From a virus (Duplodnaviria; Heunggongvirae; Uroviricota; Caudoviricetes), in IMG/VR virus record IMGVR_UViG_2778261458_000007: a DNA stretch of 39,379 nt; one strand, given 5' to 3'. The position numbers and the translations under genes are program-made. Of this stretch, positions 2,747-33,213 are shown one piece after another; within the stretch, counting starts at the first letter, position 1; each line of letters begins with the position of its first letter. Below the pieces are notes generated by a model that had not been told where the DNA came from, made no database searches, and saw nothing but the letters and a program-made list of their open reading frames with translations.

Positions 2747-2795
2747 AAATACCTCTCTTGGTTGCAGTGCGGCGCGCGTGGCGCCGCGGTGGTGG

Positions 2796-3737
2796 TTACA
2801 TAGATGTTTCGTTTAATTCTTCCCGACGAACGCTGTAAACGTCGGTGGCTTTTGCCAGCAGTTCGTCATCATCTGAAAGTTTTTGTGCAATGTATTTGTA
2901 AGCCTTATCCAGTTCGGAGACAGTGCTGTAATTCATCGCTGCGCTGGTAAAGGCCATCAGCATTTCTTCTGGATCACGGCTATCCGATTTACGCGTTTGC
3001 TCATCAGGCTTTTTCGCTGGTTTAGCGTTGATCAGACTGTTCATTCCCGCAGCAGTGGTCGTTTGCGGAGTAATGTCTCGCTCAACGCGCGGTGCCGTTT
3101 CCTGTAATTCGTCTGGGGTGTAGACGCCCATGATTACGTCAGGACAGTGCAGGCGAGACCAGCGTTTTGTCGCAAGGTATGCGAGTTGTTGTTTCGGATC
3201 ACTGGCCCAAAGTGTGGAGTTTCTTACCTGTGCTTGAGACAGCATTAACTCAAGCACTCGAGGTTGATCCTCGCCCTTCATGGTTGCCCATACGCGAACA
3301 CCGCAGCCTTCTTCGTCTTTTAGAGTCCAGCCTGGTGCGATATATGGATTGCCGTTTTTGGATGTTTTCTCAACAAACTTACCGATCACGCGTTCCCACG
3401 GCCCGAACCACTCGTAGTTGATGCGATCTTTTGTTGGCGACATCGTTGAGATAACTGCGTTTACTAATTGGGCTTCATAACCTAGCGTGCCGTTCACAAC
3501 ATGGGTTTTCTGAGCCACGGCAAACGGGTTCATTCCCCACTGCGCAGCCTGCATTGCCACGGCCATGCAATCAGCTGGTTTCCCGGCGAGGTGCGCCGGT
3601 ACCGTTACGCGGCTTTGCGCCATTACCTCGGCGAATTTCATCAGTTGGTTCAAGCCGTCTGGGCTGAAAATAGTTGCAGCAGTTCCAGCGATTGCTGTGT
3701 CTACTGGTGCGTTGATGTTTGCGATGTCGTTGCTCAT
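2796..3737 (-). CDS. recT: RecT-family single-strand annealing protein
   Basis: Sequence resembles RecT family; ATG at 3737 overlaps stop of upstream exonuclease gene (ATGA); the longer ORF start at 3764 is less likely. Confidence 0.8.
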   Translation of the reverse strand: MSNDIANINAPVDTAIAGTAATIFSPDGLNQLMKFAEVMAQSRVTVPAHLAGKPADCMAVAMQAAQWGMNPFAVAQKTHVVNGTLGYEAQLVNAVISTMSPTKDRINYEWFGPWERVIGKFVEKTSKNGNPYIAPGWTLKDEEGCGVRVWATMKGEDQPRVLELMLSQAQVRNSTLWASDPKQQLAYLATKRWSRLHCPDVIMGVYTPDELQETAPRVERDITPQTTTAAGMNSLINAKPAKKPDEQTRKSDSRDPEEMLMAFTSAAMNYSTVSELDKAYKYIAQKLSDDDELLAKATDVYSVRREELNETSM

Positions 3738-12911: not shown

Positions 12912-12962
12912 TCCGCTGGTGGGGATAATGTCGTTGATATCCTCTGATGAGGATAAAACAAA

Positions 12963-12985
12963 GCCAGCTCATCGGCTGGCTGTTT
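12963..12985. terminator. Bidirectional hairpin/terminator between terL and gp49-like gene
   Basis: Hairpin GCCAGC-TCATCG-GCTGGC with T-rich tracts on both strands. Confidence 0.5.
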
Positions 12986-13001: not shown

Positions 13002-13379
13002 TTATTGCTCGCTTAGCTTCTGCTTCAGCAAGTAACCTTCGAGCATCCAGATTTTGTTTACAGCATTCTGCCGGGCAATCTTCCGACCAATTTCTGCATC
13101 AAAGTTTTCATGGCTTGCACAGGCGCTTTCTCCGGTTACAGTAAATCCGTTGCGCAGCACCAGAACGCAGAAGGTCAGAAGTGACTCAGCAGGGTGCGCT
13201 TCCTGGTAATAGTCAATTGGGCTTTCATGCGGTTTTAAAAGCTCATTAGCGCCATGAACCCCTTCTGCAGCCGTGAAATAGTGCTCACTAATAATCACGT
13301 CTTCGATGTGCTGCGGGGTGATTCGCGGTGCCGTTTTGCCTTTCTCAGTGATTTCTTTTTCGATTTGCTGGTCGTTCAT
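13002..13379 (-). CDS. Phage gp49/gp66-family protein (unknown function)
   Basis: 125-aa ORF on opposite strand between terminase and head genes; RBS AAGGTGAG; family assignment is from memory and tentative. Confidence 0.5.
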   Translation of the reverse strand: MNDQQIEKEITEKGKTAPRITPQHIEDVIISEHYFTAAEGVHGANELLKPHESPIDYYQEAHPAESLLTFCVLVLRNGFTVTGESACASHENFDAEIGRKIARQNAVNKIWMLEGYLLKQKLSEQ

Positions 13380-13390
13380 AATCTCACCTT

Positions 13391-13414
13391 AAAAAAATGC
13401 CCGGCGAACCGGGC
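13391..13414 (-). terminator. Intrinsic terminator upstream of gp49-like gene
   Basis: Hairpin GCCCGG-CGAA-CCGGGC followed on minus strand by seven T. Confidence 0.55.
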
Positions 13415-13492
13415 GAACTGGAAGCAATGAGTTATGCCTTCCGTGGCTGTACTGGTTTACAGCATGAAGTCATCGCAATGGCGTCCTGCTGT

Positions 13493-13534
13493 AAAAAGGG
13501 CGGTGATAGTCCTTCAAGGGAAACCATCACCGCC
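13493..13534 (-). terminator. Terminator of tRNA-Arg transcript
   Basis: 9-bp stem GGCGGTGAT/ATCACCGCC with structured 18-nt loop, followed on minus strand by CTTTTT; about 44 nt downstream of tRNA 3' end. Confidence 0.55.
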
Positions 13535-13577
13535 AAGCCCCTGGAACTTCTGGCATCACGGTCCTTAGGCGTGATTC

Positions 13578-13654
13578 TGGCGTGGCATGCAGGATTCGAA
13601 CCTGCGACCAACCGCTTAGAAGGCGGTTGCTCTGTCCAACTGAGCTAATGCCAC
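13578..13654 (-). tRNA. tRNA-Arg (anticodon UCU)
   Basis: 77-nt cloverleaf on minus strand: acceptor GTGGCAT/ATGCCAC, D-arm GCTC...GAGC, anticodon stem ACCGC/GCGGT with loop CTTCTAA, T-arm GCAGG-TTCGAAT-CCTGC, encoded CCA; own terminator downstream. Confidence 0.85.
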
Positions 13655-13976
13655 AACGCTGAGAGCACTTAGCCTGTTAAGTGCGCCACACTTTGTCGCA
13701 GCTCCATAAATGCTCTCATCGTTGTACCCTCGTCTCTTCCGAGGCGTCACACCGAATCGCCGGGATGGTGAATCCCCGTGCGCGGAATAAAACCGCTCGA
13801 CTTGCACATTCCAGCTACCTGGTTCGTTTGCCCGAGCAAGGGAGGGTGCCCCTTAAACGTATCCAGACCGCTATCGGCGCATGTGCCATACGCCGTACTG
13901 CTCAAAATAAAAGCTCACTCCACCTGTTCAATTTAACGACAAGCCAGTCAGGTTAATAACCGGAATGAACCCTTTA

Positions 13977-13993
13977 CTTACCTGAAAGGTAAT
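13977..13993. promoter_or_regulatory. Operator site 10 (head operon / tRNA divergent region): CTTACCTGAAAGGTAAT
   Basis: In noncoding region upstream of head genes and of minus-strand tRNA. Confidence 0.55.
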
Positions 13994-14082
13994 AATTCGT
14001 GCGTTAAATGTCAACTACCTACGATAAATAAATCATATGTGGTTAAATTGGTAATAATTTAATTGCGTACGGAGTCATTGAT

Positions 14083-14289
14083 ATGTGCATGGGTAGCTCA
14101 CCATCAGTGCCTGCAACACCAGAAGTTCAGGCAGCACCACAGGAGCAGGATGCCGCCGTTGTTGATGCCCGCGACGAAGAAACACGTCGCCGTCGCGCTG
14201 CTGCTGGTCGTAGTTCTACGCTGCTTACCGGTTCTCAGGGCGACACATCAACCGCTAATACCAGCGGTAAAACGCTGCTTGGTCAGTAA
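14083..14289 (+). CDS. Small hypothetical protein preceding portal (68 aa)
   Basis: ATG with GGAG RBS; shares 12-nt initiation region CGGAGTCATTGA with portal gene. Confidence 0.4.
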   Translation: MCMGSSPSVPATPEVQAAPQEQDAAVVDARDEETRRRRAAAGRSSTLLTGSQGDTSTANTSGKTLLGQ

Positions 14290-14303: not shown

Positions 14304-15983
14304 ATGGCGGAAACAACTAAAGAGCGATTGAACAAACAGTTCGCACAACTTGAAAGCGAGCGTCAGTCGTTTGAGCCGCACTGGCGCGAGTTGAGTGATT
14401 ACATCAACCCGCGTGGTTCCCGCTTTCTGACTTCTGAGGTCAACCGTAACGATCGACGCAATACACGCATTATTGATTCGACCGGGACTATGGCGGCGCG
14501 CACTCTCGCCAGCGGCATGATGTCAGGCATCACAAGCCCCGCGCGTCCGTGGTTTCGCCTGGCTACGCCAGATCCTGAAATGATGGATTATGGCCCTGTT
14601 AAGTTGTGGCTTGAGGCGGTGCAGAACCGCATGAACGATATGTTCAATAAGTCGAATCTCTACCAGTCTCTTCCGCAGTTATACGGAAGCCTCGGCACAT
14701 ACAGCACTGGTGCAATGGCGGTGCTGGAGGATGACGAGGACATAATTCGCACAATGCCATTCCCGATAGGTAGTTACTACCTGGCTAACTCACCTCGTGG
14801 CAGTGTGGACACATGTTTTCGTAAGTTCTCTATGACTGTTCGTCAGCTTGTTCAGGAGTTCGGGCTAAATAACGTCAGCGAATCCGTAAAAAGCATGTGG
14901 GAAAGCGGTACCTACGAGAAGTGGATTGAAGTGATGCATTCGGTTTACCCGAACATTGACCGCGATACATCGAAGCTGGATAGCAAGAACAAGCCATTCA
15001 AATCGGTTTATTACGAGGTTGGTGGCGATAACGACAAGTTGTTGCGTGAGTCCGGATTCGATGAGTTTCCAATTATGGCTCCGCGCTGGGAAGTTAACGG
15101 CGAAGATGTTTATGGATCATCATGCCCGGGTATGCTGGCGCTTGGACCTGTTAAGGCATTGCAGCTTCTCCAGAAGCGCAAGTCGCAGTTGATTGATAAA
15201 GCCACCAATCCGCCGATGGTTGCTCCGACTTCCCTCAAGAATCAGCGCGCCTCCCTTCTTCCTGGCGACATCACGTATATCGATCAGATTACTGGTCAGG
15301 ATGGCTTCAGGCCTGCTTATCTGGTTAACCCCAGTACAGCAGATTTGGTGGCAGACATTCAGGACACTCGTCAAATCATTAACAGCGCCTACTTTGTCGA
15401 TCTGTTCATGATGTTGCAGAACATCAATACCCGCTCGATGCCTGTTGAAGCGGTGATCGAAATGAAAGAAGAAAAACTTCTGATGTTGGGGCCGGTTCTG
15501 GAGCGTCTGAACGACGAATGTCTTAATCCTCTCATTGACCGCGCTTTCTCGATGATGGTGCGTAAAAACATGCTGCCGCCACCGCCTGACGCGATGGAAG
15601 GTATGCCCCTGAAGGTCGAATACATTTCCGTCATGGCTCAGGCGCAGAAGTCTATCGGCCTGTCCAGTCTGGCGTCTACGGTCAACTTCATTGGTCAACT
15701 TGCGCAAGCGAAACCAGAAGCTCTCGACAAACTCAACGTTGATCAGGCGATCGATGCATTCGCTGATATGTCCGGAGTGTCTCCAACCGTCATTGTTCCG
15801 CAGGAACAGGTTGAGCAGGCTCGCCAGCAACGGGCACAGCAACAACAGCAGCAACAAATGATGGAGATGGGGATGGCGGCGGCACAGGGTGCCAAGACGC
15901 TAAGCGAAGCTAAAACTTCGGATCCGAGTGTTTTGTCAGCTATGGCGAATGCAGTTAGTGGTCAGGGTGGGCAATCACAATGA
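14304..15983 (+). CDS. Portal (head-to-tail connector, T7 gp8-like)
   Basis: 559-aa ORF directly after terminase module; Gln-rich C-terminus (QARQQRAQQQQQQQMMEMGMAAAQG) parallels T7-type connector C-terminus. Confidence 0.7.
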   Translation: MAETTKERLNKQFAQLESERQSFEPHWRELSDYINPRGSRFLTSEVNRNDRRNTRIIDSTGTMAARTLASGMMSGITSPARPWFRLATPDPEMMDYGPVKLWLEAVQNRMNDMFNKSNLYQSLPQLYGSLGTYSTGAMAVLEDDEDIIRTMPFPIGSYYLANSPRGSVDTCFRKFSMTVRQLVQEFGLNNVSESVKSMWESGTYEKWIEVMHSVYPNIDRDTSKLDSKNKPFKSVYYEVGGDNDKLLRESGFDEFPIMAPRWEVNGEDVYGSSCPGMLALGPVKALQLLQKRKSQLIDKATNPPMVAPTSLKNQRASLLPGDITYIDQITGQDGFRPAYLVNPSTADLVADIQDTRQIINSAYFVDLFMMLQNINTRSMPVEAVIEMKEEKLLMLGPVLERLNDECLNPLIDRAFSMMVRKNMLPPPPDAMEGMPLKVEYISVMAQAQKSIGLSSLASTVNFIGQLAQAKPEALDKLNVDQAIDAFADMSGVSPTVIVPQEQVEQARQQRAQQQQQQQMMEMGMAAAQGAKTLSEAKTSDPSVLSAMANAVSGQGGQSQ

Positions 15984-16276
15984 CAGATTACGAAGACGAT
16001 CAACTGAAAGAAGAAAACGCCCGTAAGCAACGTGACATGGCACAGCGTGAAATTGATGACATTCGCTTTGTCATGAGCAGTGAACAGGGGCGTCGCGTTG
16101 TCTGGTCTGTGCTGGAGAAAGGCCGGGTGTTTTCCGCTATCTCTCCGATGGATGCTATGGCAATGGCATTTAATGAGGGGCAACGCAATCTGGCGCTGGA
16201 ACTGTTTCAGCGCGTTATGGCGCATTGCCCTGAACAGTATTTGAAGATGGCCAAAGAGGCCAGTGAACAGGAGTGA
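15980..16276 (+). CDS. Hypothetical head-assembly protein (98 aa)
   Basis: Coupled between portal and scaffold genes. Confidence 0.45.
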   Translation: MTDYEDDQLKEENARKQRDMAQREIDDIRFVMSSEQGRRVVWSVLEKGRVFSAISPMDAMAMAFNEGQRNLALELFQRVMAHCPEQYLKMAKEASEQE

Positions 16277-16278
16277 TC

Positions 16279-16974
16279 ATGAATTTATTTGAGCGTTTGC
16301 TGTATCGCCGTCTTTGCAATGAGCAACCAGTCGATGGTGGAGCAGCTCCGGCTGCGTCAGAACCGTCAGCGCCTGCAGGTGATAACCCTGCTCCAGTTGG
16401 TGATCCATCACAACCGGAAGGTGATAAGCCACAACCTGTTGCTGATGGCGATAAACCTGCTGATGACAAAAAGCCTGAAAACGATAAGCAGGATGAAAAA
16501 AAGGACGGCGATAAACCAGAGGGTGCGCCTGAGAAGTACGAGTTTCAGGCTGCCGAAGGCGTAGAGCTGGATACAGAAGCGTTGAAGGAATTCGAGCCGG
16601 TGGCGCGAGAACTTAACCTGACCAACGAGCAAGCGCAAAAGCTGGTTGATGCTTATCCGAAGATTCTGGCAGGTGTTCAGCAGCGCCAGGCAGAAGCCTG
16701 GCAGAAAACAACCGAGCAGTGGGCTGCGGATGTAAAAGCTGACAAAGAAATCGGTGGCGACAAGTTGATTTCTAACCTTAGCGCCGCACAGCGTGCGCTT
16801 GACCAGTTCGGGACACCTGAACTCAAAGAATATCTGAACACCACCGGGCTGGGTAATCACCCTGATCTGGTCAAAACGTTCGTGAAAATCGGAAAGGCGA
16901 TGTCTGAAGATGGCATGGTCACCGGTGGTAATGAAGGCCAGCGTAGTGCGGCCGAAGTGCTCTATGGCAAATAA
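16279..16974 (+). CDS. Putative scaffolding protein
   Basis: Acidic, Pro/Asp/Lys-rich low-complexity N-terminal half then helical region; located between portal and capsid; AGGAG RBS. Confidence 0.5.
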   Translation: MNLFERLLYRRLCNEQPVDGGAAPAASEPSAPAGDNPAPVGDPSQPEGDKPQPVADGDKPADDKKPENDKQDEKKDGDKPEGAPEKYEFQAAEGVELDTEALKEFEPVARELNLTNEQAQKLVDAYPKILAGVQQRQAEAWQKTTEQWAADVKADKEIGGDKLISNLSAAQRALDQFGTPELKEYLNTTGLGNHPDLVKTFVKIGKAMSEDGMVTGGNEGQRSAAEVLYGK

Positions 16975-16988
16975 GAGAGGAAATGACA

Positions 16989-17975
16989 ATGGCTGTTAAA
17001 GGCTTAACTGCGCTAACGCTGGCTGACTGGGGTAAGCGCGTCGATTCAAACGGGAAAGTCGATAAGATTATCGAGCTTCTCGGTCAAACTAACCCGATCC
17101 TTCAGGATATGCCTTTTGTCGAAGGGAACCTTCCTACCGGACACCGAACCACCATTCGTTCTGGTTTACCTTCAGCTACCTGGCGTTTGCTGAACTATGG
17201 CGTACAGCCAAGCAAATCAACCACAGTGCAGGTAACCGATTCCGTTGGCATGCTGGAAACCTATGCGGAAGTCGATAAGTCACTGGCTGATCTGAACGGC
17301 AATACCGCCGAATTCCGCCTGTCTGAAGACCGCGCATTTATTGAAGCGATGAATCAGCAGATGGCGCAGACGCTGTTTTATGGTGATTCCAGCGTTAACC
17401 CTCAGCAGTTTATGGGACTGTCCTCCCGCTATTCCAGCCTGTCTGCGGGTAATGCTCAGAACATCATTGATGCTGGTGGCACGGGTACAGATAACACCTC
17501 AATCTGGTTAGTGGTGTGGGGCGAAAACACCGTGCATGGCATCTTCCCGAAAGGGCAGAAGGCTGGCATCCAGATGGAAGATAAAGGCCAGGTGACACTG
17601 GAAGATGCTAATGGCGGCAAGTACGAAGGCTATCGCACCCATTACAAATGGGATAACGGACTTGCTCTGCGTGACTGGCGTTATGTTGTTCGCATTGCAA
17701 ACATCGATGTCAGCAATCTTTCAGAACCTTCCTCTGCCGCAAATATTGCGAAGTTGATGGTTAAAGCACTGCATCGCATTCCAAACCGTGGCATGGGCCG
17801 CCCGGTGTTCTACATGAACCGCACTGTAGGCCAGGCTCTTGATCTGCAGTCTCTGGAGAAAACATCTCTGGCGATTAGCGTAAAAGAGACTGAAGGCGAG
17901 TGGTGGACGTCATTCCGTGGTGTACCAATCCGTGAAACTGATGCGCTTCTGGAAACAGAAGCCCGCGTGGTGTAA
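16989..17975 (+). CDS. Major capsid protein
   Basis: About 330-aa ORF after scaffold with strong RBS GAGAGG; followed by hairpin and terminator as usual after capsid genes. Confidence 0.7.
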   Translation: MAVKGLTALTLADWGKRVDSNGKVDKIIELLGQTNPILQDMPFVEGNLPTGHRTTIRSGLPSATWRLLNYGVQPSKSTTVQVTDSVGMLETYAEVDKSLADLNGNTAEFRLSEDRAFIEAMNQQMAQTLFYGDSSVNPQQFMGLSSRYSSLSAGNAQNIIDAGGTGTDNTSIWLVVWGENTVHGIFPKGQKAGIQMEDKGQVTLEDANGGKYEGYRTHYKWDNGLALRDWRYVVRIANIDVSNLSEPSSAANIAKLMVKALHRIPNRGMGRPVFYMNRTVGQALDLQSLEKTSLAISVKETEGEWWTSFRGVPIRETDALLETEARVV

Positions 17976-18026
17976 CGCCTGTTATTAACCTGTGGGTCGT
18001 AACAGACCCACTAATGGAGAAAGAAG

Positions 18027-18464
18027 ATGATCACCGACAAACTGTTGATGTTCTCCGAAGCACAGGCGGTAACTGATACCGCGGCTTCTACTGACGTAAT
18101 CGATCTCGGTCCAATTGATGGGATCCGTCGCGATATCGGCGTGGGTTATCCGCTTGAGTTTTGGGCGCTGGTTAACGAAGCCGCCACGGCAAGTGGTGAG
18201 GCAACTGTAAACATCCAGTTGCAGACGAGTGAGAATAACAGCTCATGGTCCACTATTTATGATAGTGGCGCACTGGCAAAGGCCACCCTGACAGCAGGTA
18301 AGCGAGTTGTTTCTGCAAAGGTGCCAGCCGGTGTTCAGCGATATCTGCGTGTTAACTACTCCGTCGCAACTGGCCCACTAACGGCTGGCAAATTCACTGC
18401 TGGTATCAATCTTGATGTTGATGCCAATACGCCGTATCCGATCCGCTCAAAAGTAACTGGTTAA
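18027..18464 (+). CDS. Putative capsid decoration or virion protein
   Basis: 145-aa ORF directly after capsid gene; RBS GGAGAAAG. Confidence 0.45.
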   Translation: MITDKLLMFSEAQAVTDTAASTDVIDLGPIDGIRRDIGVGYPLEFWALVNEAATASGEATVNIQLQTSENNSSWSTIYDSGALAKATLTAGKRVVSAKVPAGVQRYLRVNYSVATGPLTAGKFTAGINLDVDANTPYPIRSKVTG

Positions 18465-19184: not shown

Positions 19185-19789
19185 TGGCCTCTGTAGTAGA
19201 GATCTGTAATCGTGCGCTGTCCAATATTGGCAACAGCCGCAGCATTAACAGCCTGACGGAAGCCAGCAAGGAAGCGGGGGAATGTTCGCTGCATTTTGAG
19301 GCCTGTCGTGATGCTGTGCTTTCTGATTTTGACTGGAACTTTGCTACAAAACGCGTGGCGCTTGCAGATACGAGCAATCCACCGCCTGACTGGGAATATG
19401 CGTACCAGTACCCTTCCGATTGTCTGCGCATTACTGAAATTATGCTTCCTGGTGTACGCAATCCAACAGCAGCAATGCGTGTTCAGTACGAAGTTGGTGC
19501 AGACACCAACGGAACAGGAAAATTGATCTACACAGACCAGCCGCAGGCATGGCTTAAGTATGTCTCTCGCGTTACAGATGTGAACATGTTTGATGCCATT
19601 TTTATGGAGGCGCTGGCCTGGCGTCTTGCGGCAGCTATTAACATGGCGCTGACTGGGAATGCAGACCTCGGTACGTTTGCCCTCAATATGTACAATCGCG
19701 TGATTCTTAGTGCTGGCTCGCATAGCCAGAATGAATCACAGGAACCACAGCCACCGGTTGATGAGTTTACCATTGCGAGGTTGTCCTGA
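19184..19789 (+). CDS. Tail tubular protein A-like (adaptor)
   Basis: N-terminal pattern and size resemble T7 gp11-type proteins; directly precedes large nozzle-like gene. Confidence 0.5.
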   Translation: MASVVEICNRALSNIGNSRSINSLTEASKEAGECSLHFEACRDAVLSDFDWNFATKRVALADTSNPPPDWEYAYQYPSDCLRITEIMLPGVRNPTAAMRVQYEVGADTNGTGKLIYTDQPQAWLKYVSRVTDVNMFDAIFMEALAWRLAAAINMALTGNADLGTFALNMYNRVILSAGSHSQNESQEPQPPVDEFTIARLS

Positions 19790-22260
19790 TGGCTATCAGT
19801 TGGATCCAGCCCAGCTTTGCCGGTGGTGAGATTGGACCGTCGTTGTACGGTCGTATCGACATGGCGAAGTACCAGGTGGCATTGCGCAAGTGCGATAACT
19901 TTATCGTGCGGCAGTATGGCGGCGTTGAGAATCGACCTGGTACGCGTTTTGTCGGTGCCGCCAAATACCCAAATCGGAAATGCCGCCTGATCCCGTTCCA
20001 GTTCTCGACGGTTCAGACCTATGCTCTGGAGTTCGGGCACCAGTACATGCGCGTTATCAAAGATGGTGCGTTGGTGCTGAACAGCAGCAATGTTATTTAT
20101 GAAATTGCCACGCCATATACTGAAGCCGATCTGTTCCGAATTAAATTTACGCAAAGCGCCGACGTGCTTACGCTGGTTCACCCGGCATACCCGCCGAAAG
20201 AGTTGCGCCGCTATGCGCATGACAACTGGCAACTGGTTGATGTGGTAACGAAGAACGGGCCATTTGAAGATATCAATATTGACGAGTCAGTGACGGTTTA
20301 TGCCAGCGCCAGCACCGGGACAATTACGTTAACGGCAAGCGCCTCTATTTTTGGCGCGGAGCAGGTAGGCAAATTGTTCTATCTGGAACAGCCTGCAGTG
20401 GATTCAGTGCCGGTATGGGAAACCAGTAAGAGTACGTCGATTGGCGATATTCGCCGTGCAGACAGTAACTACTATCGCGCCGTTACAGCAGGCAAAACAG
20501 GCACTTTGCGCCCTTCGCATACAGAAGGCACATCATGGGATGGCTGGGGCGGATCCGGTGATGATGATACTGGCATTGAGTGGGAGTATCTGCACAGTGG
20601 TTTTGGCATTGCCCGTATCACTGCTGTAAACGGCACTACTGCAACTGCCGAGGTGATTTCCTATATCCCTTCGCAGGTCGTTGGCGAGGATAATGCCAGC
20701 TATAAATGGGCTAAATATGCCTGGAACAGTGTTAATGGTTATCCTGGCACTGTTGTTTATTATCAACAACGTCTTTACTTCGCCGCATCGACTGCGTTCC
20801 CTCAGACTATCTGGGCCAGCCGTACCGGGGATTATAAGGATTTTGGCAAAAGCAATCCTACGCAGGATGACGACAGAATTATCTACACCTATGCCGGGCG
20901 TCAGGTTAATGAGATCCGCCACCTGATTGATGTCGGTTCGCTGGTGGCACTGACTTCCGGAGGTGAGTACGTCATCACCGGCGACCAGAACAAAGTGTTA
21001 ACCCCATCATCATTTGCATTCAGCTCTCAGGGATCAAATGGCTCAAGCAACGTCCCACCAATTGCTGTGGCGAATATTGCTCTGTTTGTCCAGGAGAAAG
21101 GCAGCGTTGTCCGTGATCTGGCCTACTCATTCGATGTTGACGGCTATCAGGGGAACGACCTGACCATCCTTGCCAATCATCTTTTTCAGAAGCACAGCAT
21201 TGTTGACTGGTGCTTCTCGATAGTCCCTTACTCCAGCGCCTTCTGCATCCGTGATGACGGTAAATTACTGGTGATGACCTATTTGCGTGATCAACAGGTT
21301 TTTGCATGGGCACCACAGTCCAGTACCGGAAAATATGAAAGCACATGCAGTATCAGCGAAGGCAATGAAGATGCGGTGTATTTCGTCGTTAACCGAACCG
21401 TTAACGGGCAAACAGTGAGATACATCGAGAGACTGTCTAGCCGTTTATTTACCAGCGATGAAGATGCTTTCTTTGTTGATTCTGGCCTTAGCTATGATGG
21501 AAGAAATACGTCTGACAGAACGATGACCATCACTGGTGGTTCTGGCGAATGGGATTATCGCGCGGAATATACAATCAGTGTTTCTGGTGGTGCGTACTTC
21601 ACCAGTAGTGATGTCGGCGCGCAACTACAGTTCCCTTATGTCGGAACTGATCCTGATACTGGCGATGAAGTGTCAAAAGAATTACGTTGCGACATTATTT
21701 CTGTAACCAGCAATACCGCTGTAGTGGTTCGTGCTAACAGGAACGTCCCGCCATCCCTCAGGAATGTGGCCACCACGAACTGGCAGATGGCGCGCCGGAC
21801 ATTTGGAGGCCTGTCTCATCTTGAAGGCCAGACCGTAAACATTCTCTCTGATGCGAACGTGGAGCCACAGAAAGTGGTTTCCGGAGGTGCCGTCACGCTG
21901 GAATCTCCGGGGGCTGTAGTGCACATCGGCCTGCCAATAACTGCTGAATTCGAAACACTGGATATCAACATTAACGGACAGGAAACGCTGCTGGACAAAA
22001 AACAGGTGATCCCGTCCGTTACTCTGGTTGTGAATGCCAGCCGCGGCATCTGGGCGACTACGCCCGGCGGTAAATGGTACGAATATCCACAGCGTGAATT
22101 CGAGTTCTACGATGATCCTGTTGATGACGCTACCGGAAAAGTAGAAGTGAAACTGGACAGTAACTGGGGCAAAAACGGACGTGTAAGAATCCGTCAGCTT
22201 GACCCGTTGCCGCTGTCTGTTCTTGCCGTTATTCCTCGCCTTACTGTTGGGGGATTCTGA
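19789..22260 (+). CDS. Tail tubular protein B-like (nozzle)
   Basis: 823-aa ORF following gp11-like gene in T7-like order. Confidence 0.5.
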   Translation: MAISWIQPSFAGGEIGPSLYGRIDMAKYQVALRKCDNFIVRQYGGVENRPGTRFVGAAKYPNRKCRLIPFQFSTVQTYALEFGHQYMRVIKDGALVLNSSNVIYEIATPYTEADLFRIKFTQSADVLTLVHPAYPPKELRRYAHDNWQLVDVVTKNGPFEDINIDESVTVYASASTGTITLTASASIFGAEQVGKLFYLEQPAVDSVPVWETSKSTSIGDIRRADSNYYRAVTAGKTGTLRPSHTEGTSWDGWGGSGDDDTGIEWEYLHSGFGIARITAVNGTTATAEVISYIPSQVVGEDNASYKWAKYAWNSVNGYPGTVVYYQQRLYFAASTAFPQTIWASRTGDYKDFGKSNPTQDDDRIIYTYAGRQVNEIRHLIDVGSLVALTSGGEYVITGDQNKVLTPSSFAFSSQGSNGSSNVPPIAVANIALFVQEKGSVVRDLAYSFDVDGYQGNDLTILANHLFQKHSIVDWCFSIVPYSSAFCIRDDGKLLVMTYLRDQQVFAWAPQSSTGKYESTCSISEGNEDAVYFVVNRTVNGQTVRYIERLSSRLFTSDEDAFFVDSGLSYDGRNTSDRTMTITGGSGEWDYRAEYTISVSGGAYFTSSDVGAQLQFPYVGTDPDTGDEVSKELRCDIISVTSNTAVVVRANRNVPPSLRNVATTNWQMARRTFGGLSHLEGQTVNILSDANVEPQKVVSGGAVTLESPGAVVHIGLPITAEFETLDININGQETLLDKKQVIPSVTLVVNASRGIWATTPGGKWYEYPQREFEFYDDPVDDATGKVEVKLDSNWGKNGRVRIRQLDPLPLSVLAVIPRLTVGGF

Positions 22261-22724
22261 TGATAGACGTTCAAATTATTCCCGCTACCGAAGAGCATCT
22301 TCAGATGATTTTGCCGGATGTTCGTCAAGCTGATATTGACGAACTGTATGCGGTATCACTGATGACTACCGAAGATGCGCTGCGTGTTGGTCTTCGCACT
22401 GCGACTATGGCCTGGTCAGGGTTCGCGAACGGAGAACTGGTAACCATGTTTGGTGTATCTCCGGCGTCAATGATCGGTGGCAATGGTACGCCCTGGCTGG
22501 TAGGAACCAGCCGTATTGAAAAATATCAGAAGACATTTCTTCGCCACTGCCGCCCTGTATTGCAGCAGATGCTGGCAGTTTATCCGCGCCTGGAAAACTA
22601 CGTCGACGAGCGAAACCATGTTGCCAAAGCATGGCTGCACTGGCTTGGATTCAGGCTTGAAGAAGCCGCGCCTTATGGTGCTCTTGGTCTTAATTTCCAC
22701 AGATTTCACATGGAGAGAAAATAA
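22260..22724 (+). CDS. Hypothetical internal virion protein
   Basis: 154-aa ORF coupled to nozzle gene stop. Confidence 0.4.
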   Translation: MIDVQIIPATEEHLQMILPDVRQADIDELYAVSLMTTEDALRVGLRTATMAWSGFANGELVTMFGVSPASMIGGNGTPWLVGTSRIEKYQKTFLRHCRPVLQQMLAVYPRLENYVDERNHVAKAWLHWLGFRLEEAAPYGALGLNFHRFHMERK

Positions 22725-23263
22725 TGTGTAACCCAGCCATCGCTTTGGTTGCCGTCACAGTGGCATCCACAGCCGCGTCAATGTACAGCCAGAGCAAGCA
22801 GGCAAAATACCAGTCAGCCATAGCTGATCGGAATGCTGAAATTGCTGAAGCTCAGGCACAGGATTCAATCAATCGTGGGAATATTGAAGCGGATCAGCGT
22901 CGTCGTGAAATGCGTCAACGCTCAGGTACTGCGGCGGCCACTATGGGTGCTACCGGTGCGGAATTAAGTAGCGGAACAGCTCTTGACGTTTTTGCGGATA
23001 ATGCTCAGTTCGGCACTCTTGATGCGTTAACGACAGTGAATAATGCTCAGCGTGAGGCATATGGGTATCAGGTTCAGGGAATGAATGCTCAGGCACAGGG
23101 GGCTGCTGCTCAGTCGGCTGCTAAATCATCGATGACCAGCACTTTGTTAACGGCACCACTAAAAGCATACGGTGCATACCAGATGGGCGGCGGAACGTGG
23201 AGCCCGTTCTCTCAGAAGGCTGCGCCGATTTCTGCTGCTGTTGGCACTCCAACCGGTCGATAA
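22724..23263 (+). CDS. Internal virion protein with N-terminal hydrophobic segment
   Basis: 179-aa ORF, Ala/Gln-rich, N-terminal hydrophobic stretch; position equivalent to T7 gp14. Confidence 0.4.
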   Translation: MCNPAIALVAVTVASTAASMYSQSKQAKYQSAIADRNAEIAEAQAQDSINRGNIEADQRRREMRQRSGTAAATMGATGAELSSGTALDVFADNAQFGTLDALTTVNNAQREAYGYQVQGMNAQAQGAAAQSAAKSSMTSTLLTAPLKAYGAYQMGGGTWSPFSQKAAPISAAVGTPTGR

Positions 23264-23275
23264 GGGGATAATAAG

Positions 23276-25789
23276 ATGCCAGTTGTACCAACAACATCGG
23301 GCCGTCAGGTTCAGAGCAGAGGGATTTCGACGCAGGGATTCTCATCGTTTCAGACTCCAAATGTCGGTGATGTACTTGGCGATGTTGCAGAGCAATATGC
23401 AGGTATTATTGCGCAGGCAAAACAGCGTGCGAATGTTGCTATGGCTCAGGATGCTTCTCTTAGCTTAAGCCAGATAAGCAGCGATCTGCTGAATAACCCT
23501 GAAACAGGTTTGCTTAACCTGAAAGGGAAAAATGCTATTGGAAAAGGTCAGGAGTATACGCAGCAGTTTGATGCTCAGGTCGAACAACTGGCTATGTCGC
23601 TGCCTGATGAACAGGCTCGTAATGCTTTCATGCAGCAGGCGCAGCAGCAGCGCATTCAGTTCACTACGCAGGCCGGGCGGCACGAGATAGGGCAAATTAA
23701 TGCCTACGAAGAAGGTCAGTTTCAGGCGACGCTGCTGAACAATGGTAAAAATGCCGCAGCATTGTATGGCGACAACACCGCATACGTATTGGCTAATAAG
23801 CAAACTTTCCAGCAAATTGAGGAGTACGGTGTTGCACATGGCTGGAGCGACGAGCAAATACAGGCCAAGAAAATCGAGTTTAAAGAGAAGGTTGCTGATG
23901 CCGCATTGTCCCAGTGGTCGGCAAACAATGCGACCGCATTCATCCAAAGTAATGGCGAGTTAAGTGATACTGCTGCTGGAGCTCGCCGTGCTGTAGCAGA
24001 TAGTGACTCTTCCGAGCATGCCCGTGGCATACGCAACAATAACCCAGGAAATCTCGAATACAGCAAAACTAATCCGTGGGTAGGCCAGACCGGTGATGAT
24101 GGTCGATTTGCTAAATTCGAAACACCTGAACACGGGATTCGTGCATTAGGGCGGAACCTGATGTCGTATCAGAGGCAGGGTATTGATACCGTCAGTGAGA
24201 TAATTAATCGCTGGGCACCGCCTACTGATAAAAATGACACTATGTCGTATATCAAAGCAGTGTGCGAACAACTTGGCGTTTCTGCTGATGAGCCTCTCGA
24301 TGCATCAAATCCTGATACCCTGAAGGCGCTTTGTGCAGCCATTATCCATCATGAGAACGGTAGCCAGCCATACAGTGATCAGCAGTTAACTGCTGGTGTC
24401 AGTGCAGCACTTGGTTTATCAACAATTCCAACCAACACCAAACGCTATACCGGTAATGCAGCATTCGATGCGGCATCTCCTGAGGCTCAGGCAAGTTTTA
24501 TGCGACAGGCGGATCAACTGCGTCGGCAGCAGCAGGCTGAATATAAAACGATGCTCGACAGCCGGGTTCGCGATGCGACGGCTGCGTATATGCGTGGCGT
24601 TGAATTTCCTAACCCACCAGGTGAGGATGATTTTATTGCAGCTTATGGCGTCAGAGAAGGAAACCTGCGATATACCGAGTTCAGAAATACGCAGATCGCC
24701 GGACAGTATATAGGCTCTTTCCGCAACATGCCGACAAGCAGCATTACAGCATATGTTGAGCAATTGCGCCCAGATACTGGTGAGACAGGGGAGGGTTATG
24801 CGGCACGAGTCGCTCTTTATGACAACGTTGTGTCGGCTGCAAATCAGGTGATAAAGCAGCGGCAGTCGGATCCTGTGCAGTTCTCTCTTGCCTCCGGACA
24901 GGCAAAGCCTATCGACATGAGCAATAAGGATAACTTTGGACAGAGCGTTGCCTTGCGTGCCGCTCAGGTCAGTGACCTTGCTAAGTCATATGGCACTCCA
25001 CTGACGTTCTTTTCCAAAGACGAGGCCAATCAGATCGGTGTTTTCTTTCGTGATGCGCCCGTTTCCCAACAGGCAGCATATCTCGATACCATCAGGCAGA
25101 GCACTGGTGGTGGGAAGGTGTATATGTCAGCACTACAGCAGATTAGTGCCAACGCGCCATCTGCTGCCGTTGCCGGGATACTGATGGATAAGCCTGGTGG
25201 TATTTTGGCAGAAAAAAACTGGTTTAATCCGGATGTTTCCGTGTCTCCTGAAACCGCTGCGCAGACAATTCTTGCTGGCGCGGCGGCTCGTAAAGGTACT
25301 GATGATGCGAAAGGTATTCCGATGCCTAAAGATGCTGATCTTCGCCTTGAGTTTTCTGACATGGTGAAGGATGCATTTGCTGGTGACGCTCAGGGGGCAT
25401 CAATGGCATACGAGATCGCAAAGGACTATTACGCTGGTGTGATGGCGAAAAAAGGCGTGGTATCAGGCGAAATTGACAATGATGTCTGGAAACAGGCTGT
25501 TAACGTAGCTACAGGTGGCGTGCATGACTATAACGGAATGGGGAATGTCCTTTTGCCGTGGGGAATGTCTGCAGAGCAATTCGATAAGCAGGTTAATCAG
25601 GCTTGGAATGAACAAGTTGTCGGCACCGGGATAAAAACACCGCCTGGTCAGTATGGTTTGCAAAGTTACGGCGATAGTCAGTACCTGGTGAAACTTGGTA
25701 CTGGTTATCTGCTGAAAGATGATGGTTCTCCTGTTGTTCTTGATCTGACACAGAAGCGTCAGAGATTCTCCGGAGATATTCCGCAATGA
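23276..25789 (+). CDS. Internal virion / DNA-ejection protein (837 aa)
   Basis: Large ORF in core-protein position with RBS AAGGGG; contains a conserved-looking segment IRNNNPGNLEY...RWAPP. Confidence 0.45.
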   Translation: MPVVPTTSGRQVQSRGISTQGFSSFQTPNVGDVLGDVAEQYAGIIAQAKQRANVAMAQDASLSLSQISSDLLNNPETGLLNLKGKNAIGKGQEYTQQFDAQVEQLAMSLPDEQARNAFMQQAQQQRIQFTTQAGRHEIGQINAYEEGQFQATLLNNGKNAAALYGDNTAYVLANKQTFQQIEEYGVAHGWSDEQIQAKKIEFKEKVADAALSQWSANNATAFIQSNGELSDTAAGARRAVADSDSSEHARGIRNNNPGNLEYSKTNPWVGQTGDDGRFAKFETPEHGIRALGRNLMSYQRQGIDTVSEIINRWAPPTDKNDTMSYIKAVCEQLGVSADEPLDASNPDTLKALCAAIIHHENGSQPYSDQQLTAGVSAALGLSTIPTNTKRYTGNAAFDAASPEAQASFMRQADQLRRQQQAEYKTMLDSRVRDATAAYMRGVEFPNPPGEDDFIAAYGVREGNLRYTEFRNTQIAGQYIGSFRNMPTSSITAYVEQLRPDTGETGEGYAARVALYDNVVSAANQVIKQRQSDPVQFSLASGQAKPIDMSNKDNFGQSVALRAAQVSDLAKSYGTPLTFFSKDEANQIGVFFRDAPVSQQAAYLDTIRQSTGGGKVYMSALQQISANAPSAAVAGILMDKPGGILAEKNWFNPDVSVSPETAAQTILAGAAARKGTDDAKGIPMPKDADLRLEFSDMVKDAFAGDAQGASMAYEIAKDYYAGVMAKKGVVSGEIDNDVWKQAVNVATGGVHDYNGMGNVLLPWGMSAEQFDKQVNQAWNEQVVGTGIKTPPGQYGLQSYGDSQYLVKLGTGYLLKDDGSPVVLDLTQKRQRFSGDIPQ

Positions 25790-27588: not shown

Positions 27589-27593
27589 ATTAA

Positions 27594-30068: not shown

Positions 30069-30077
30069 GGAACAACA

Positions 30078-33034: not shown

Positions 33035-33190
33035 GGTGGTTATCTCCACTTAGTGATTTTAATCACCACCGCAACGCCAATTACTGGTGGTGAACTGGAC
33101 AAGGTTGGCGTACCGGCCTAAGTGGTACCGGCGTCCTTTCGGACCCCTGCCCAGCCCACCATAATTCGGATATAGCTGTGCTTAACGCAT

Positions 33191-33213
33191 AAAAAAACCA
33201 CGTCTGGCGTGGT
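33191..33213 (-). terminator. Intrinsic terminator inside leader upstream of Bro-N gene
   Basis: Hairpin ACCACG-CCAGA-CGTGGT followed on minus strand by T-run. Confidence 0.55.

What the first reader, a model, noticed from the sequence alone, without database searches (positions are those of the whole stretch)
13002..13993. Phage-encoded tRNA-Arg(UCU) with its own terminators, inserted with a gp49-like gene between terminase and portal on the opposite strand
A complete 77-nt tRNA with anticodon UCU (reads the rare AGA codon) and encoded CCA lies at 13578-13654 on the minus strand, 13 kb from the integrase. It is therefore cargo, not the attachment site. It is followed by a long-stem terminator (13493-13534) and a second terminator before the gp49-like gene. 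Operator site 10 sits in the shared upstream region, so the tRNA may be repressor-controlled. A rare-codon tRNA inserted against the direction of the structural module suggests a moron that aids late-gene or accessory-gene translation.
Basis: partly seen in the sequence, partly recalled or inferred. Interest (0 to 1): 0.5.

Follow-up and report, generated by a model that had tools for sequence, protein, structure and literature searches.

The report
Phage tRNA-Arg inside repressor-controlled RNA operon
The tRNA-Arg(UCU) gene is real but already annotated in related phages; the new part is that it is joined to a widespread, undescribed, highly structured RNA, and both appear to be transcribed from a promoter that the prophage repressor shuts off.

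Summary
A 77-nt tRNA-Arg(UCU) with encoded CCA lies at 13578-13654 (-). It is followed by two strong terminator hairpins and a PF13876 (gp49-like) gene, and a repressor operator lies upstream. The window is a phiV10/epsilon15-type (Uetakevirus) prophage that integrates beside guaA, so the tRNA is internal cargo. The same tRNA is already annotated in sister phages and in RefSeq E. coli genomes.

The "inserted moron" reading does not hold. The leftward unit is ancestral to the genus. A conserved TTGACA-17 nt-TACCYT promoter is overlapped by the operator. epsilon15 lacks the tRNA because of a deletion between two short direct repeats. AGA codon use does not track tRNA presence.

The unexpected result is the sequence directly 5' of the tRNA (13727-13897, with a closing hairpin reaching 13654). 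It is a conserved pseudoknotted RNA of about 170 nt with strong covariation and no Rfam match. It also occurs in the pL leaders of N-less lambdoid phages and beside tRNA-Ile in the P1 ban operon. It is present in about a third of complete E. coli genomes and was unannotated in every record inspected. Its function is unresolved: it may be a cis antiterminator or a processed early RNA.

The parts
14009..14014 (-). -35 hexamer TTGACA of the leftward early promoter
   Evidence: Read from the sequence. The hexamer (TTGACA in most loci, TTGACC or TTGGCA in three) keeps the same 17-nt spacing to the operator half-site in the window and in 11 of 12 other Uetakevirus-type loci printed; PAT1's printed stretch does not reach it. 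The tool's strict promoter scan missed it because the -10 matches only 3 of 6.
13986..13991 (-). -10-like hexamer TACCTT (keeps T1, A2, T6), lying inside the operator
   Evidence: Conserved as TACCYT exactly 17 nt after the -35 hexamer in 12 of 13 loci; PAT1's printed stretch does not reach the hexamer. The predicted start, about 13977-13979, is an inference.
13977..13993 (.). Repressor (Rep) operator CTTACCTGAAAGGTAAT
   Evidence: One of 13 matches to the motif against 1.03 expected. Same motif as the annotated epsilon15 repressor sites.
13898..13976 (-). 5' leader. Its 3' half (GGTGGAGTGAGCTTTTATTTTGAG) is a degenerate copy of a hairpin module that is intact in relatives.
   Evidence: Comparison with L012, L110, Klebsiella, PAT1 and Tyrion.
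13727..13897 (-). Conserved pseudoknotted core RNA. P1 13875-13895. P2 13864-13870 with 13812-13821. Unpaired GGAAUGUGCAAGUC at 13798-13811. P4 13773-13776 with 13762-13765. Pseudoknot CACC 13767-13770 with GGUG 13750-13753. P5 13740-13744 with 13728-13732.
   Evidence: Alignments A3 and A4. 96.8% of cells are paired against 30-47% for slid controls. 13 of 29 pairs show compensatory changes, and 0 of 500 shuffles reach the observed values. No Rfam match at E <= 10. Coordinates.
13654..13724 (-). P6, a long closing hairpin (CAACGAUGAGAGCAU...GUGCUCUCAGCGUUG). Its last base is G1 of the tRNA.
   Evidence: -29.2 kcal/mol, z = -4.3. The stem covaries among relatives, e.g. CAAUCAAAGAGCG/CGCUCUUUUUGAUUG in L020.
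13578..13654 (-). tRNA-Arg, anticodon UCU, encoded CCA
   Evidence: ARAGORN. Rfam tRNA 73.3 bits. 64/77 identical to host argU, with identical anticodon loop and T arm and a D arm differing at one loop base; most other differences are paired changes in stems.
13555..13575 (-). Trailer hairpin AUCACGCCUAAGGACCGUGAU
   Evidence: Weak on its own (-5.9 kcal/mol). But it is conserved after either the tRNA or the tRNA-like modules in SPN1S, the Klebsiella phage, L043, L049, L073 and L109.
13499..13534 (-). T1 terminator hairpin followed by CUUUUU
   Evidence: Homologous, with covarying stems, to the GGCGGU...ACCGCC-CUUUUUACA terminator that follows the leader in lambdoid carriers and in SPN1S and the Klebsiella phage. 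Its loop motif UUCCCUUGA is the repeat used in the epsilon15 deletion.
13399..13414 (-). T2 terminator (GC stem, UUCG loop, A+U7) directly abutting the Shine-Dalgarno AAGGUGA (13383-13390) of the gp49-like gene
   Evidence: Present at the same place in every Uetakevirus-type locus examined, epsilon15 included.
13002..13379 (-). gp49-like protein gene (PF13876; phrog_322, function unknown)
   Evidence: In relatives this slot holds other small genes: DUF2829 in the Klebsiella phage, a 143-aa ORF in PAT1, a 64-aa ORF in SPN1S.
12962..12981 (.). Terminator-like hairpin (AGCCAGC-N6-GCUGGCU) between the convergent terminase and gp49-like genes, probably bidirectional
   Evidence: Called on the minus strand and folded. 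phiV10 annotates the same hairpin as a terminator on the plus strand. Bidirectional use is an inference from these two results.

Best explanation
The tRNA-Arg(UCU) is a functional phage tRNA. It is not a free-standing moron. It is the 3' module of a composite early RNA transcribed leftward from a sigma70-type promoter (TTGACA-17 nt-TACCTT) whose -10/+1 is covered by the prophage repressor operator.

The order of the transcript is:
1. an 80-nt leader;
2. a conserved pseudoknotted RNA of about 170 nt;
3. a long closing hairpin (P6);
4. the tRNA;
5. a trailer hairpin;
6. terminator T1;
7. terminator T2;
8. the gp49-like gene.

In the lysogen the repressor should keep this unit off. On induction or infection it is made early. 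RNase P cutting at tRNA G1 (13654) would free the tRNA and, in the same cut, define the 3' end of the upstream structured RNA. In relatives, tRNA-like hairpin modules in the same slot would serve the same purpose. The tRNA then adds AGA-decoding capacity for a genome that uses AGA about three times more than its host. The gp49-like gene can be expressed only by polymerases that pass T1 and T2.

Shown: the tRNA, the hairpins, the operator, the conserved promoter geometry, the conserved fold of the leader RNA, the zero-nucleotide junction, and the variable occupancy of the slot.

Inferred: the transcription start, co-transcription, repression in the lysogen, RNase P processing, and the benefit to translation.
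For: - tRNA.
- Internal position in a guaA-integrated prophage.
- Annotated tRNA-Arg in O157 typing phages 9 and 10, phiv142-3, SPN9TCW, SPC32H, and in RefSeq E. coli.
- Operator enrichment, 13 sites against 1.03 expected.
- Promoter-operator geometry seen in the window and 11 of 12 other loci spanning four host genera.
- No gap between P6 and the tRNA (GCGUU|GUGG).
- The same junction is followed by a tRNA-Arg (phiV10, SPN1S and Klebsiella types), by a tRNA-His-like gene with a roughly 55-nt insert (Rfam tRNA 39.9 bits), or by hairpin modules closed by GUGGU/ACCAC.
- In P1 the same RNA starts 14 nt after tRNA-Ile inside the C1-controlled ban operon.
- Structure of the leader RNA.
- T1 and T2 strength and conservation.
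- AGA 6.8 per 1000 codons, concentrated in tail and injection genes (32 AGA in 19789-30491), none in head genes 14304-18464.
Against: - No expression data exist here. The -10 hexamer matches only 3 of 6, and the tool's promoter scan called nothing.
- AGA use does not follow tRNA presence across four genomes. With the tRNA: 6.5 and 5.7 per 1000. Without: 4.3 and 7.2.
- epsilon15 is a viable phage without the tRNA or the core RNA, so neither is essential.
- Most tRNA-like slot modules are not recognised by the Rfam tRNA model. RNase P "punctuation" therefore rests on helix geometry and on the known RNase P processing of P1 C4 RNA, which I cite from memory.
Confidence: 0.6

Rival explanations
1. 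The conserved pseudoknotted RNA is a cis-acting processive antiterminator, functionally like HK022 put but unrelated in sequence. Polymerase that has transcribed it reads through T1 and T2 (and through the T1-like terminator in lambdoid phages), which switches on the gp49-like gene or the early-left operon. On this view the tRNA is a passenger or a processing handle. This is compatible with the best explanation for the tRNA. It competes only over what the leader does.
For: - In lambdoid carriers the order is cI stop, terminator, strong pL (TTGACA-16-CATAAT) overlapped by operators, about 45 nt, the element, a strong terminator (GCGGTACCAG...CTGGTACCGC-UCUUUUU), then the first gene.
- The first genes there are yfdP/Q/R-like, not an N-type antiterminator.
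- A 2025 paper notes that lambdoid phages with this kind of early-left operon lack N and may use put-like RNA (PMC12315714).
- In every Uetakevirus locus, T2 abuts the ribosome-binding site of the downstream gene, so that gene can be reached only by read-through.
- The epsilon15 deletion removed the core RNA and half of T1 together.
Against: - No sequence similarity to HK022 putL: nhmmer finds nothing at E <= 10.
- The RNA is more than twice the size of put.
- There is one copy per genome, with none after pR.
- In P1 it lies 2.3 kb from the promoter, with no terminator before ban.
- epsilon15 keeps T2 and the gene without the element.
- T1 is conserved in sequence along with the element, which looks more like the 3' end of an RNA gene.
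Confidence: 0.3
2. The tRNA plus the gp49-like gene is an autonomous moron, with its own promoter and terminators, inserted between terminase and portal. It is expressed independently of the lytic programme to help translate rare AGA codons.
For: - The unit is transcribed against the structural genes and is bounded by terminators.
- The tRNA is absent from epsilon15.
- AGA use is above the host average.
Against: - The unit is present across the genus and is not an insertion.
- epsilon15's state is a repeat-mediated deletion.
- No promoter lies between the upstream RNA and the tRNA, because there is no gap.
- The only conserved promoter is operator-overlapped.
- The gp49-like gene has no AGA or AGG codons.
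- AGA use is not linked to tRNA presence.
Confidence: 0.07
3. The tRNA is a counter-defence spare. It replaces host tRNA-Arg(UCU) when an anticodon nuclease or toxin cleaves it, as shown for T5 tRNAs according to my own knowledge of the literature.
For: Acceptor and anticodon stems differ from argU by changes that mostly keep the pairs, while identity elements are kept. Such a pattern could alter recognition by a stem-reading nuclease.
Against: The anticodon loop CUUCUAA is identical to that of argU, so a loop-reading nuclease would cut both. No tRNA-Arg(UCU)-specific defence was identified here. The slot holds non-tRNA hairpin modules in many relatives.
Confidence: 0.05

Closest known systems
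Phage-encoded tRNA genes, e.g. the tRNA-Arg annotated in O157 typing phages 9 and 10, SPN9TCW and SPC32H; the P1 ban-operon tRNAs (Asn, Thr, Ile); the ileZ-argN-argO tRNAs of Stx phages (the last from my own knowledge)
   Same: A canonical tRNA carried as internal phage cargo that reads a codon rare in the host. The very same gene is already annotated in sister phages and by PGAP in E. coli genomes. In P1 the tRNAs also sit in a repressor-controlled early operon.
   Different: Here the tRNA is fused with no gap to a conserved structured RNA. It occupies a slot that holds tRNA-like hairpins in relatives. Its presence does not follow codon use.
Phage T4 tRNA cluster with co-transcribed stable RNAs of unknown function (species 1 and 2, RNA C and D), matured by RNase P (own knowledge)
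   Same: tRNA genes and non-tRNA stable RNAs share one early transcript, with tRNA processing enzymes defining the ends.
   Different: No sequence relationship was tested or is expected. The RNA here is a pseudoknotted fold of about 170 nt that also occurs without any tRNA in lambdoid pL leaders.
HK022 put RNA (cis-acting processive antiterminator)
   Same: It lies just downstream of a repressor-controlled early promoter and upstream of intrinsic terminators, in lambdoid phages that lack N (PMC9378689 for put).
   Different: No detectable sequence similarity. About 170 nt with a pseudoknot and five helices, against about 70 nt with two stem-loops. One copy per genome. Function untested.
P1/P7 C4 antisense RNA, released from its precursor by RNase P (own knowledge; Rfam RF01695)
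   Same: A phage regulatory RNA matured by tRNA-processing machinery. C4 and isrK co-occur with the new RNA in the window, mEp460, Ayreon and, for C4, P1 (C4 in P1 is from my own knowledge).
   Different: A different RNA at a different locus (33083-33267 in the window). It shares no similarity with the core RNA.
Morons (autonomous promoter-gene-terminator cassettes in prophages)
   Same: Opposite orientation to the flanking structural genes, terminators at the end, and variable gene cargo in the last position.
   Different: The promoter is overlapped by the repressor operator. The unit is conserved across the genus and is not an insertion.

Membership tests
tRNA (Rfam RF00005), isoacceptor Arg-UCU | Cloverleaf scoring above the curated threshold, with a 7-nt anticodon loop carrying UCU | tested here: met
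   ARAGORN tRNA-Arg(tct). Infernal 73.3 bits against a gathering score of 29, covering the full model 1-71.
tRNA (Rfam RF00005), isoacceptor Arg-UCU | Arginine identity elements (A20, C35, U36) and a 3' CCA | tested here: met
   The anticodon loop and T arm are identical to host argU, and the D arm differs at one loop base next to A20. GCCA is encoded. Most other differences are paired stem changes. That these positions are the identity set is my own knowledge. Charging was not tested.
tRNA gene serving as the prophage attachment site | tRNA at the prophage-host junction, with an identical host copy at the other end | tested here: not met
   A prophage of this type lies beside guaA, with the integrase at the junction and the tRNA about 16 kb inside. 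The best host tRNA is only 85.9% identical over 71 nt.
Moron | An insertion relative to close relatives | tested here: not met
   The unit is present in all Uetakevirus-type loci examined. The tRNA-less epsilon15 is a deletion between CCCTTGATGCT repeats.
Moron | Own promoter that is independent of phage repression | tested here: inconclusive
   The only conserved promoter is overlapped by the Rep operator. There is no gap between the upstream RNA and the tRNA. Expression was not measured.
HK022-type put antiterminator RNA | Sequence or structure homology to putL/putR (two stem-loops, about 70 nt) | tested here: not met
   nhmmer of the core profile against the HK022 pL-nun region gives no hit at E <= 10. 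Inspection of the HK022 leader shows no match.
HK022-type put antiterminator RNA | Lies in an early transcript between the promoter and terminators, in phages without N | tested here: met
   Lambdoid carriers. Uetakevirus. The P1 copy does not fit this pattern.
HK022-type put antiterminator RNA | Makes RNA polymerase terminator-resistant in cis, and is blocked by mutations in the beta-prime zinc-binding domain | not testable with these tools
   Needs reporter or in vitro transcription assays.
Any curated RNA family (Rfam 15) for the 13655-13897 RNA | A match to a covariance model | tested here: not met
   No hit in 13655-13897 at the gathering threshold or at E <= 10. Homologous loci give none either.
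Phage_gp49_66 (PF13876) | A Pfam match above the gathering score | tested here: met
   121.7 bits against 27, E = 1.9e-35, covering the full profile 1-82.

The most novel reading that the evidence does not exclude
The pseudoknotted RNA of about 170 nt fused to the tRNA may be a new class of phage early regulatory RNA shared by three unrelated temperate lineages (Uetakevirus, N-less lambdoids, P1-like phage-plasmids). It would be either a put-independent cis-acting processive antiterminator or a stable RNA released by tRNA-processing enzymes that targets a conserved host machine. On this reading tRNAs and tRNA-like hairpins serve as its processing punctuation. It is present in about a third of complete E. 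coli genomes and was unannotated in every record inspected.
Probability: 0.4. Interest if true: 0.8.

Novelty: new variant of a known kind. Interest (0 to 1): 0.6.

Why it matters
On its own, the tRNA is an ordinary, already annotated phage tRNA, and the rare-codon explanation is at best partial. Its context matters more.

- It shows a repressor-controlled "RNA operon" at the terminase-portal junction of a whole phage genus.
- It exposes a strongly covarying, pseudoknotted RNA family with 105 distinct sequences recovered here. The family is in 1833 of 5426 complete E. coli genomes. It is absent from Rfam, and I found no description of it in the literature I could search.
- The same RNA sits where N-less lambdoid phages would need an early antitermination device. 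That long-standing gap becomes directly testable with simple reporter constructs.
- It also corrects existing annotation. phiV10 ORF p04 is antisense to the tRNA. The epsilon15 "RNase III site" overlaps the remnant of the deleted RNA.

Tried and rejected
- Rfam on the window, at the gathering threshold and at E <= 10 on 13380-14100, gave only the tRNA for this region.
- Rfam on 18 homologous loci, and on the mEp460 leader, gave no family for the core RNA or for the tRNA-like modules.
- HK022 put homology was rejected by sequence. The paper on HK639 antiterminator RNAs (PMC3187212) and the P1 genome paper (PMC523184) are not held in the library.
- Full-text searches found no description of the RNA. 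I searched for motif strings from the RNA and for phiV10 or SPC32H together with tRNA or operator terms.
- Protein-coding readings of 13655-13897 were rejected. mEp460_037, Ayreon 0037, phiV10 p04 and the 91-aa and 63-aa window ORFs fall here. The substitutions preserve base pairs, including G-U pairs valid only on the minus strand, and indels sit in loops.
- The attachment-site reading was rejected.
- The anticodon-nuclease-escape reading was weakened by the identical anticodon loop.
- A link between codon use and tRNA presence was tested and not found.
It yielded only two true hits, one in Kosakonia sacchari and one in a locus (L236) whose organism I did not read. The taxonomic range therefore rests on phage and E. 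coli collections.
- My strict terminator finder missed the lambdoid terminator because of its 17-nt loop. That terminator was read by eye.
- The 64 Synechococcus phage hits are generic tRNA-Arg(UCU) similarity only. They appear when the tRNA is in the query and vanish when only the upstream RNA is searched.
Full report
**1. The observation**

ARAGORN finds exactly one tRNA in the 39,379-bp window: tRNA-Arg with anticodon tct at 13578-13654 on the minus strand. Infernal scores it 73.3 bits against Rfam's tRNA model, whose gathering score is 29. The CCA end is encoded.

Downstream on the same strand lie two terminator-like hairpins.
- T1 (13534..13499) has a 14-bp stem followed by CUUUUU. It folds at -22.8 kcal/mol with z = -5.4.
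- T2 (13414..13399) has a GC stem, a UUCG loop and A+U7. It folds at -12.7 kcal/mol with z = -3.3.

The region holds five terminator-like sites against 1.4 expected. The ORF at 13002-13379 (-) is a PF13876 "gp49/gene 66" protein (E = 1.9e-35). It lies between the terminase large subunit and the portal. The operator motif ATTACC-N5-GGTAAT, as annotated in epsilon15, occurs 13 times in the window against 1.03 by chance. One copy is at 13977-13993.

**2. What the window is, and whether the tRNA is new**

The window is 97-98% identical to phiV10, to O157 typing phages 9 and 10, and to their relatives in the genus Uetakevirus, which includes epsilon15.

The same tRNA is already annotated in typing phages 9 and 10, phiv142-3, SPN9TCW and SPC32H. 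PGAP annotates it in E. coli chromosomes. The phiV10 record misses it and instead calls an ORF (p04) antisense to it.

About 505 of 5426 complete E. coli genomes carry the tRNA with its flanks. In the one I inspected, the prophage lies beside guaA with the integrase at the junction and the tRNA about 16 kb inside. The nearest host gene is argU, which lies between fimZ and intD. It is only 64/77 identical. The anticodon loop and T arm are the same, the D arm differs at one loop base, and most other differences are paired changes in the acceptor and anticodon stems.

So the tRNA is genuine internal cargo, not a junction artefact. As an object it is already known.

**3. The tRNA is not an inserted, self-contained cassette**

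Three results argue against the "moron" reading.

(a) Every Uetakevirus-type locus I examined has the same leftward unit. These come from E. coli, Salmonella, Klebsiella and Enterobacter phages. The unit consists of a promoter region, a structured leader, the T2 terminator fused to a ribosome-binding site, and a small gene. The last gene varies: PF13876 here, DUF2829 in a Klebsiella phage, and other small ORFs in PAT1 and SPN1S.

(b) In the window and 11 of 12 other such loci, a -35 hexamer (TTGACA in most, TTGACC or TTGGCA in three) lies exactly 17 nt upstream of TACCYT. TACCYT is the first half of the operator, so the operator covers the -10 and the start site. In PAT1 the printed stretch ends before the expected hexamer. 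In the window the -35 hexamer is at 14009-14014 and the -10-like hexamer at 13986-13991. The tool's strict scan did not call this promoter because the -10 matches only 3 of 6, although it keeps the T1, A2 and T6 positions. This conserved geometry is the basis for saying the unit is repressor-controlled. It is an inference, not an expression measurement.

(c) epsilon15 has no tRNA. A pairwise alignment shows why. Its sequence jumps from GGGTT|CCCTTGATGCT inside the upstream RNA to the same CCCTTGATGCT in the loop of T1. This deletes the rest of that RNA, the tRNA and half of T1, while keeping the promoter, operator, T2 and the gene. SPN1S-like relatives carry both repeat copies. The tRNA-less state is therefore a secondary loss.

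**4. The rare-codon idea**

The phage uses AGA at 6.8 per 1000 codons (11.3% of Arg codons) and AGG at 4.1 per 1000. From my own knowledge, the E. coli averages are about 2 and 1-1.5 per 1000.

AGA is absent from the head genes (14304-18464) and from the gp49-like gene. It is concentrated in the tail and injection genes, with 32 AGA codons in 19789-30491.

Across four genomes analysed the same way, AGA use does not follow tRNA presence:

| Genome | tRNA | AGA per 1000 codons |
|---|---|---|
| window | present | 6.5 |
| SPN1S | present | 5.7 |
| epsilon15 | absent | 4.3 |
| Tyrion | absent | 7.2 |

. A translational benefit is plausible, but it is not what decides whether the tRNA is present.

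**5. The unexpected part: a conserved structured RNA fused to the tRNA**

A sensitive search with the intergenic region found matches to the roughly 245 nt directly 5' of the tRNA (13651-13896). They match many lambdoid phages at 81-82%: cdtI, mEp460, Ayreon, 2H10 and Stx2c phages. They match P1, P7, D6 and SJ46 at about 79%. Almost none of these places has any annotation.

Two independent pattern scans of viral contigs, followed by profile searches, gave 105 distinct full-length cores in 160 hits. The second scan used only the 5' hairpin as its pattern. Among the 47 new variants it recovered, 41 keep GGAAUGUGCAAGC(C/U). The conservation of that unpaired stretch is therefore not an artefact of how I searched.

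I aligned 36 representatives sharing less than 93% identity (A4) and counted pairs for the following structure:
- P1, a hairpin;
- P2, which encloses a variable arm;
- P4, with the loop yUCACCA;
- a pseudoknot between the loop CACC and a downstream GGUG;
- P5, with the loop GAAGAGA.

The counts are:
- 96.8% of cells are paired, against 30-47% when partners are slid.
- 13 of 29 pairs show changes on both sides, in 91 cells.
- None of 500 shuffles reaches the observed values (A3 gave the same picture).
- The pseudoknot is 100% paired. Three sequences carry AACC with GGUU in place of CACC with GGUG.

Invariant U-G and G-U pairs fit only the minus strand, so the RNA runs in the same direction as the tRNA.

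Most members add a long closing hairpin, P6. In the window it spans 13654-13724 and folds at -29.2 kcal/mol with z = -4.3. Its stem also covaries.

No Rfam 15 family matches, even at E <= 10. Full-text searches for the motif strings found nothing. The family is present in 1833 of 5426 complete E. coli genomes, including 554 places on plasmids (P1-like elements). All but four of the 30 records listed show no feature under the match, and none shows a feature for this RNA.

**6. Contexts of the RNA**

(i) Uetakevirus. The RNA lies 20-230 nt downstream of the operator-overlapped promoter.

(ii) Lambdoid phages. The order is: end of cI, terminator, a strong pL (TTGACA-16-CATAAT) overlapped by operators, about 45 nt, the RNA, further hairpins, a strong terminator (GCGGTACCAG...CTGGTACCGC-UCUUUUU), and then the first early-left gene. 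A second immunity type shows the same arrangement. The first genes are yfdP/Q/R-like, not an N antiterminator.

(iii) P1. The RNA starts 14 nt after tRNA-Ile and about 100 nt before ban. It lies inside the C1-controlled ban operon, which also holds tRNA-Asn, tRNA-Thr and a dicF-like region. The P1 type lacks P6.

In all three settings the RNA belongs to a transcript that the prophage repressor controls.

**7. The tRNA slot**

P6 always ends ...GCGUU|GUGG. What follows varies:
- the tRNA-Arg, in the phiV10, SPN1S and Klebsiella types and in L072;
- a tRNA-His-like gene with an insert of about 55 nt (L087; Rfam tRNA 39.9 bits);
- a module with canonical D- and T-arm-like hairpins (L073);
- longer hairpin modules that begin GUGGUGA and end (U/C)CACCAC-A (mEp460, Tyrion, L043, L020 and others).

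After any of these comes the same trailer hairpin, AUCACGCCUUAGGACCGUGAU, and in many loci T1. The true tRNA differs from the modules by a compensatory U5-A to C5-G change in this closing helix.

Most of the modules are not recognised as tRNA by Rfam. "tRNA-like" is therefore my reading of their geometry.

The simplest interpretation is that this position provides a processing site. RNase P would cut at the 5' side of G1. In phiV10-type phages a real, useful tRNA fills that role. RNase P maturation of a phage regulatory RNA has a precedent in P1 C4 RNA (my own knowledge). C4 and isrK co-occur with the new RNA in the window (33083-33267), in mEp460 and in Ayreon; C4 is also part of P1 immunity by my own knowledge.

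**8. How it most likely works**

Best-supported model (confidence about 0.6 for the tRNA part):
- In the lysogen, Rep sits on 13977-13993 and blocks the leftward promoter.
- On induction or infection an early transcript is made. It contains the leader, the pseudoknotted RNA, P6, the tRNA and the trailer, and it mostly ends at T1 or T2.
- RNase P releases the tRNA and the upstream RNA together.
- The tRNA supplements AGA decoding for the later tail genes.
- The gp49-like gene is reached only by read-through.

What the core RNA does is open. I see two main readings.

The first is a cis-acting processive antiterminator, at about 0.3. In its favour:
- its place between early promoters and terminators;
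- the absence of N in the lambdoid carriers;
- the fusion of T2 to the ribosome-binding site.

Against it:
- the P1 context;
- a single copy per genome;
- the lack of any similarity to HK022 put;
- the co-conservation of T1.

The second is a stable early RNA, cut out by RNase P and perhaps RNase III, which acts on a conserved host partner. In its favour are the processing signals on both sides and the invariant unpaired segments. No partner is known.

I noted two short resemblances as leads only. The 3' strand of P6 (GCUCUY..) resembles boxA, and UGCAAGUC resembles a 16S 5' segment. Neither was tested.

**9. Verdict**

The finding as written is a correct observation of an already known phage tRNA. 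Its "moron for rare codons" interpretation is only partly right. What makes the locus interesting is the fused, widespread, undescribed structured RNA and the tRNA's apparent role as its punctuation.

Noticed in passing
window 33083-33267 (-): Rfam finds C4 antisense RNA (66 bits) and isrK (67.7 bits) side by side, a P1-type antirepressor control module. The same pair is in the lambdoid carriers of the new RNA, mEp460 and Ayreon. All these phages therefore share both RNA systems.
   Followed up: partly
L001 (phiV10 DQ126339.2) 2672-2923; L002/L004 (epsilon15) 2720-2819: phiV10 ORF p04 is antisense to the tRNA and is probably spurious. The epsilon15 "RNase III site" overlaps the remnant P1 hairpin of the deleted structured RNA. 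ORFs mEp460_037, Ayreon 0037 and Tyrion gp54 also overlie the RNA or its P6 hairpin.
   Followed up: partly
L087 1116-1241 (+): A tRNA-His(GUG)-like gene with an insertion of about 55 nt after the anticodon arm (Rfam tRNA 39.9 bits; ARAGORN did not call it). It occupies the slot after P6 and is followed by a second P6-like hairpin.
   Followed up: no
L134 (SPN1S) about 1566-1655; also L114, L115, L087: In these loci the interior of P6 carries an insert of about 90 nt with two T-arm-like hairpins: UCUGG-UUCGAUU-CCAGA and GUCCG-UUCGAUU-CGGAC. This may be a further tRNA-derived module.
   Followed up: no
L131 (PAT1) about 1663-1900; L137 (Kosakonia sacchari) downstream of 3332: PAT1 and a Kosakonia prophage share a different conserved sequence after the core RNA (AUCAGCCAUUCAC..GCUUAGCGGGACUGGAAGAGUUACCACUUGGAGACGGUCC...). 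It replaces P6 and the tRNA. It has no Rfam match and may be another structured module.
   Followed up: no
L006/L007/L008 downstream of the T1-like terminator (e.g. L008 about 2745-2835, minus strand): In lambdoid carriers the terminator is followed by a long conserved hairpin, ACAAAACAGAGAAGAGCA...UGUUCUUCUCUGUUUUGU, enclosing GCUCAUAACCCAAUCC. L020 and L114 have it too. Its 5' strand could pair with the terminator's U-tract.
   Followed up: no
window 14020-14070: A block of about 45 nt (on the plus strand, ...ATCATATGTGGTTAAATTGGTAATAATTTAATTGCG) between the leftward promoter and gp3 is nearly invariant across E. coli, Salmonella, Klebsiella and Enterobacter relatives. It contains a lone operator half-site. 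No sigma70-type rightward promoter is evident, so it may be an activator-dependent late promoter for the portal and head operon.
   Followed up: no
L021 3999-4155 and 4806-4960 (-): One viral contig carries two copies of the core RNA about 650 nt apart on the same strand. The first lies about 55 nt after a TTGACC-17-TACATT promoter-like site.
   Followed up: no
window 13499-13534 versus 13822-13863: The loop of T1 (UUUCCCUUGAAGG) repeats the conserved UUCCYUUG motif of the variable arm inside P2 of the core RNA. In SPN1S-like phages the two copies share 13-14 nt and are the end-points of the epsilon15 deletion. I could not tell whether the shared motif has a function, such as a common binding partner.
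   Followed up: partly
L133 (Stenotrophomonas phage BUCT709) 1441-1590: A phage recorded on Stenotrophomonas carries a core RNA almost identical to the Klebsiella type, downstream of a helix-turn-helix gene. This is either a wider host range for the RNA or a doubtful host assignment.
   Followed up: no
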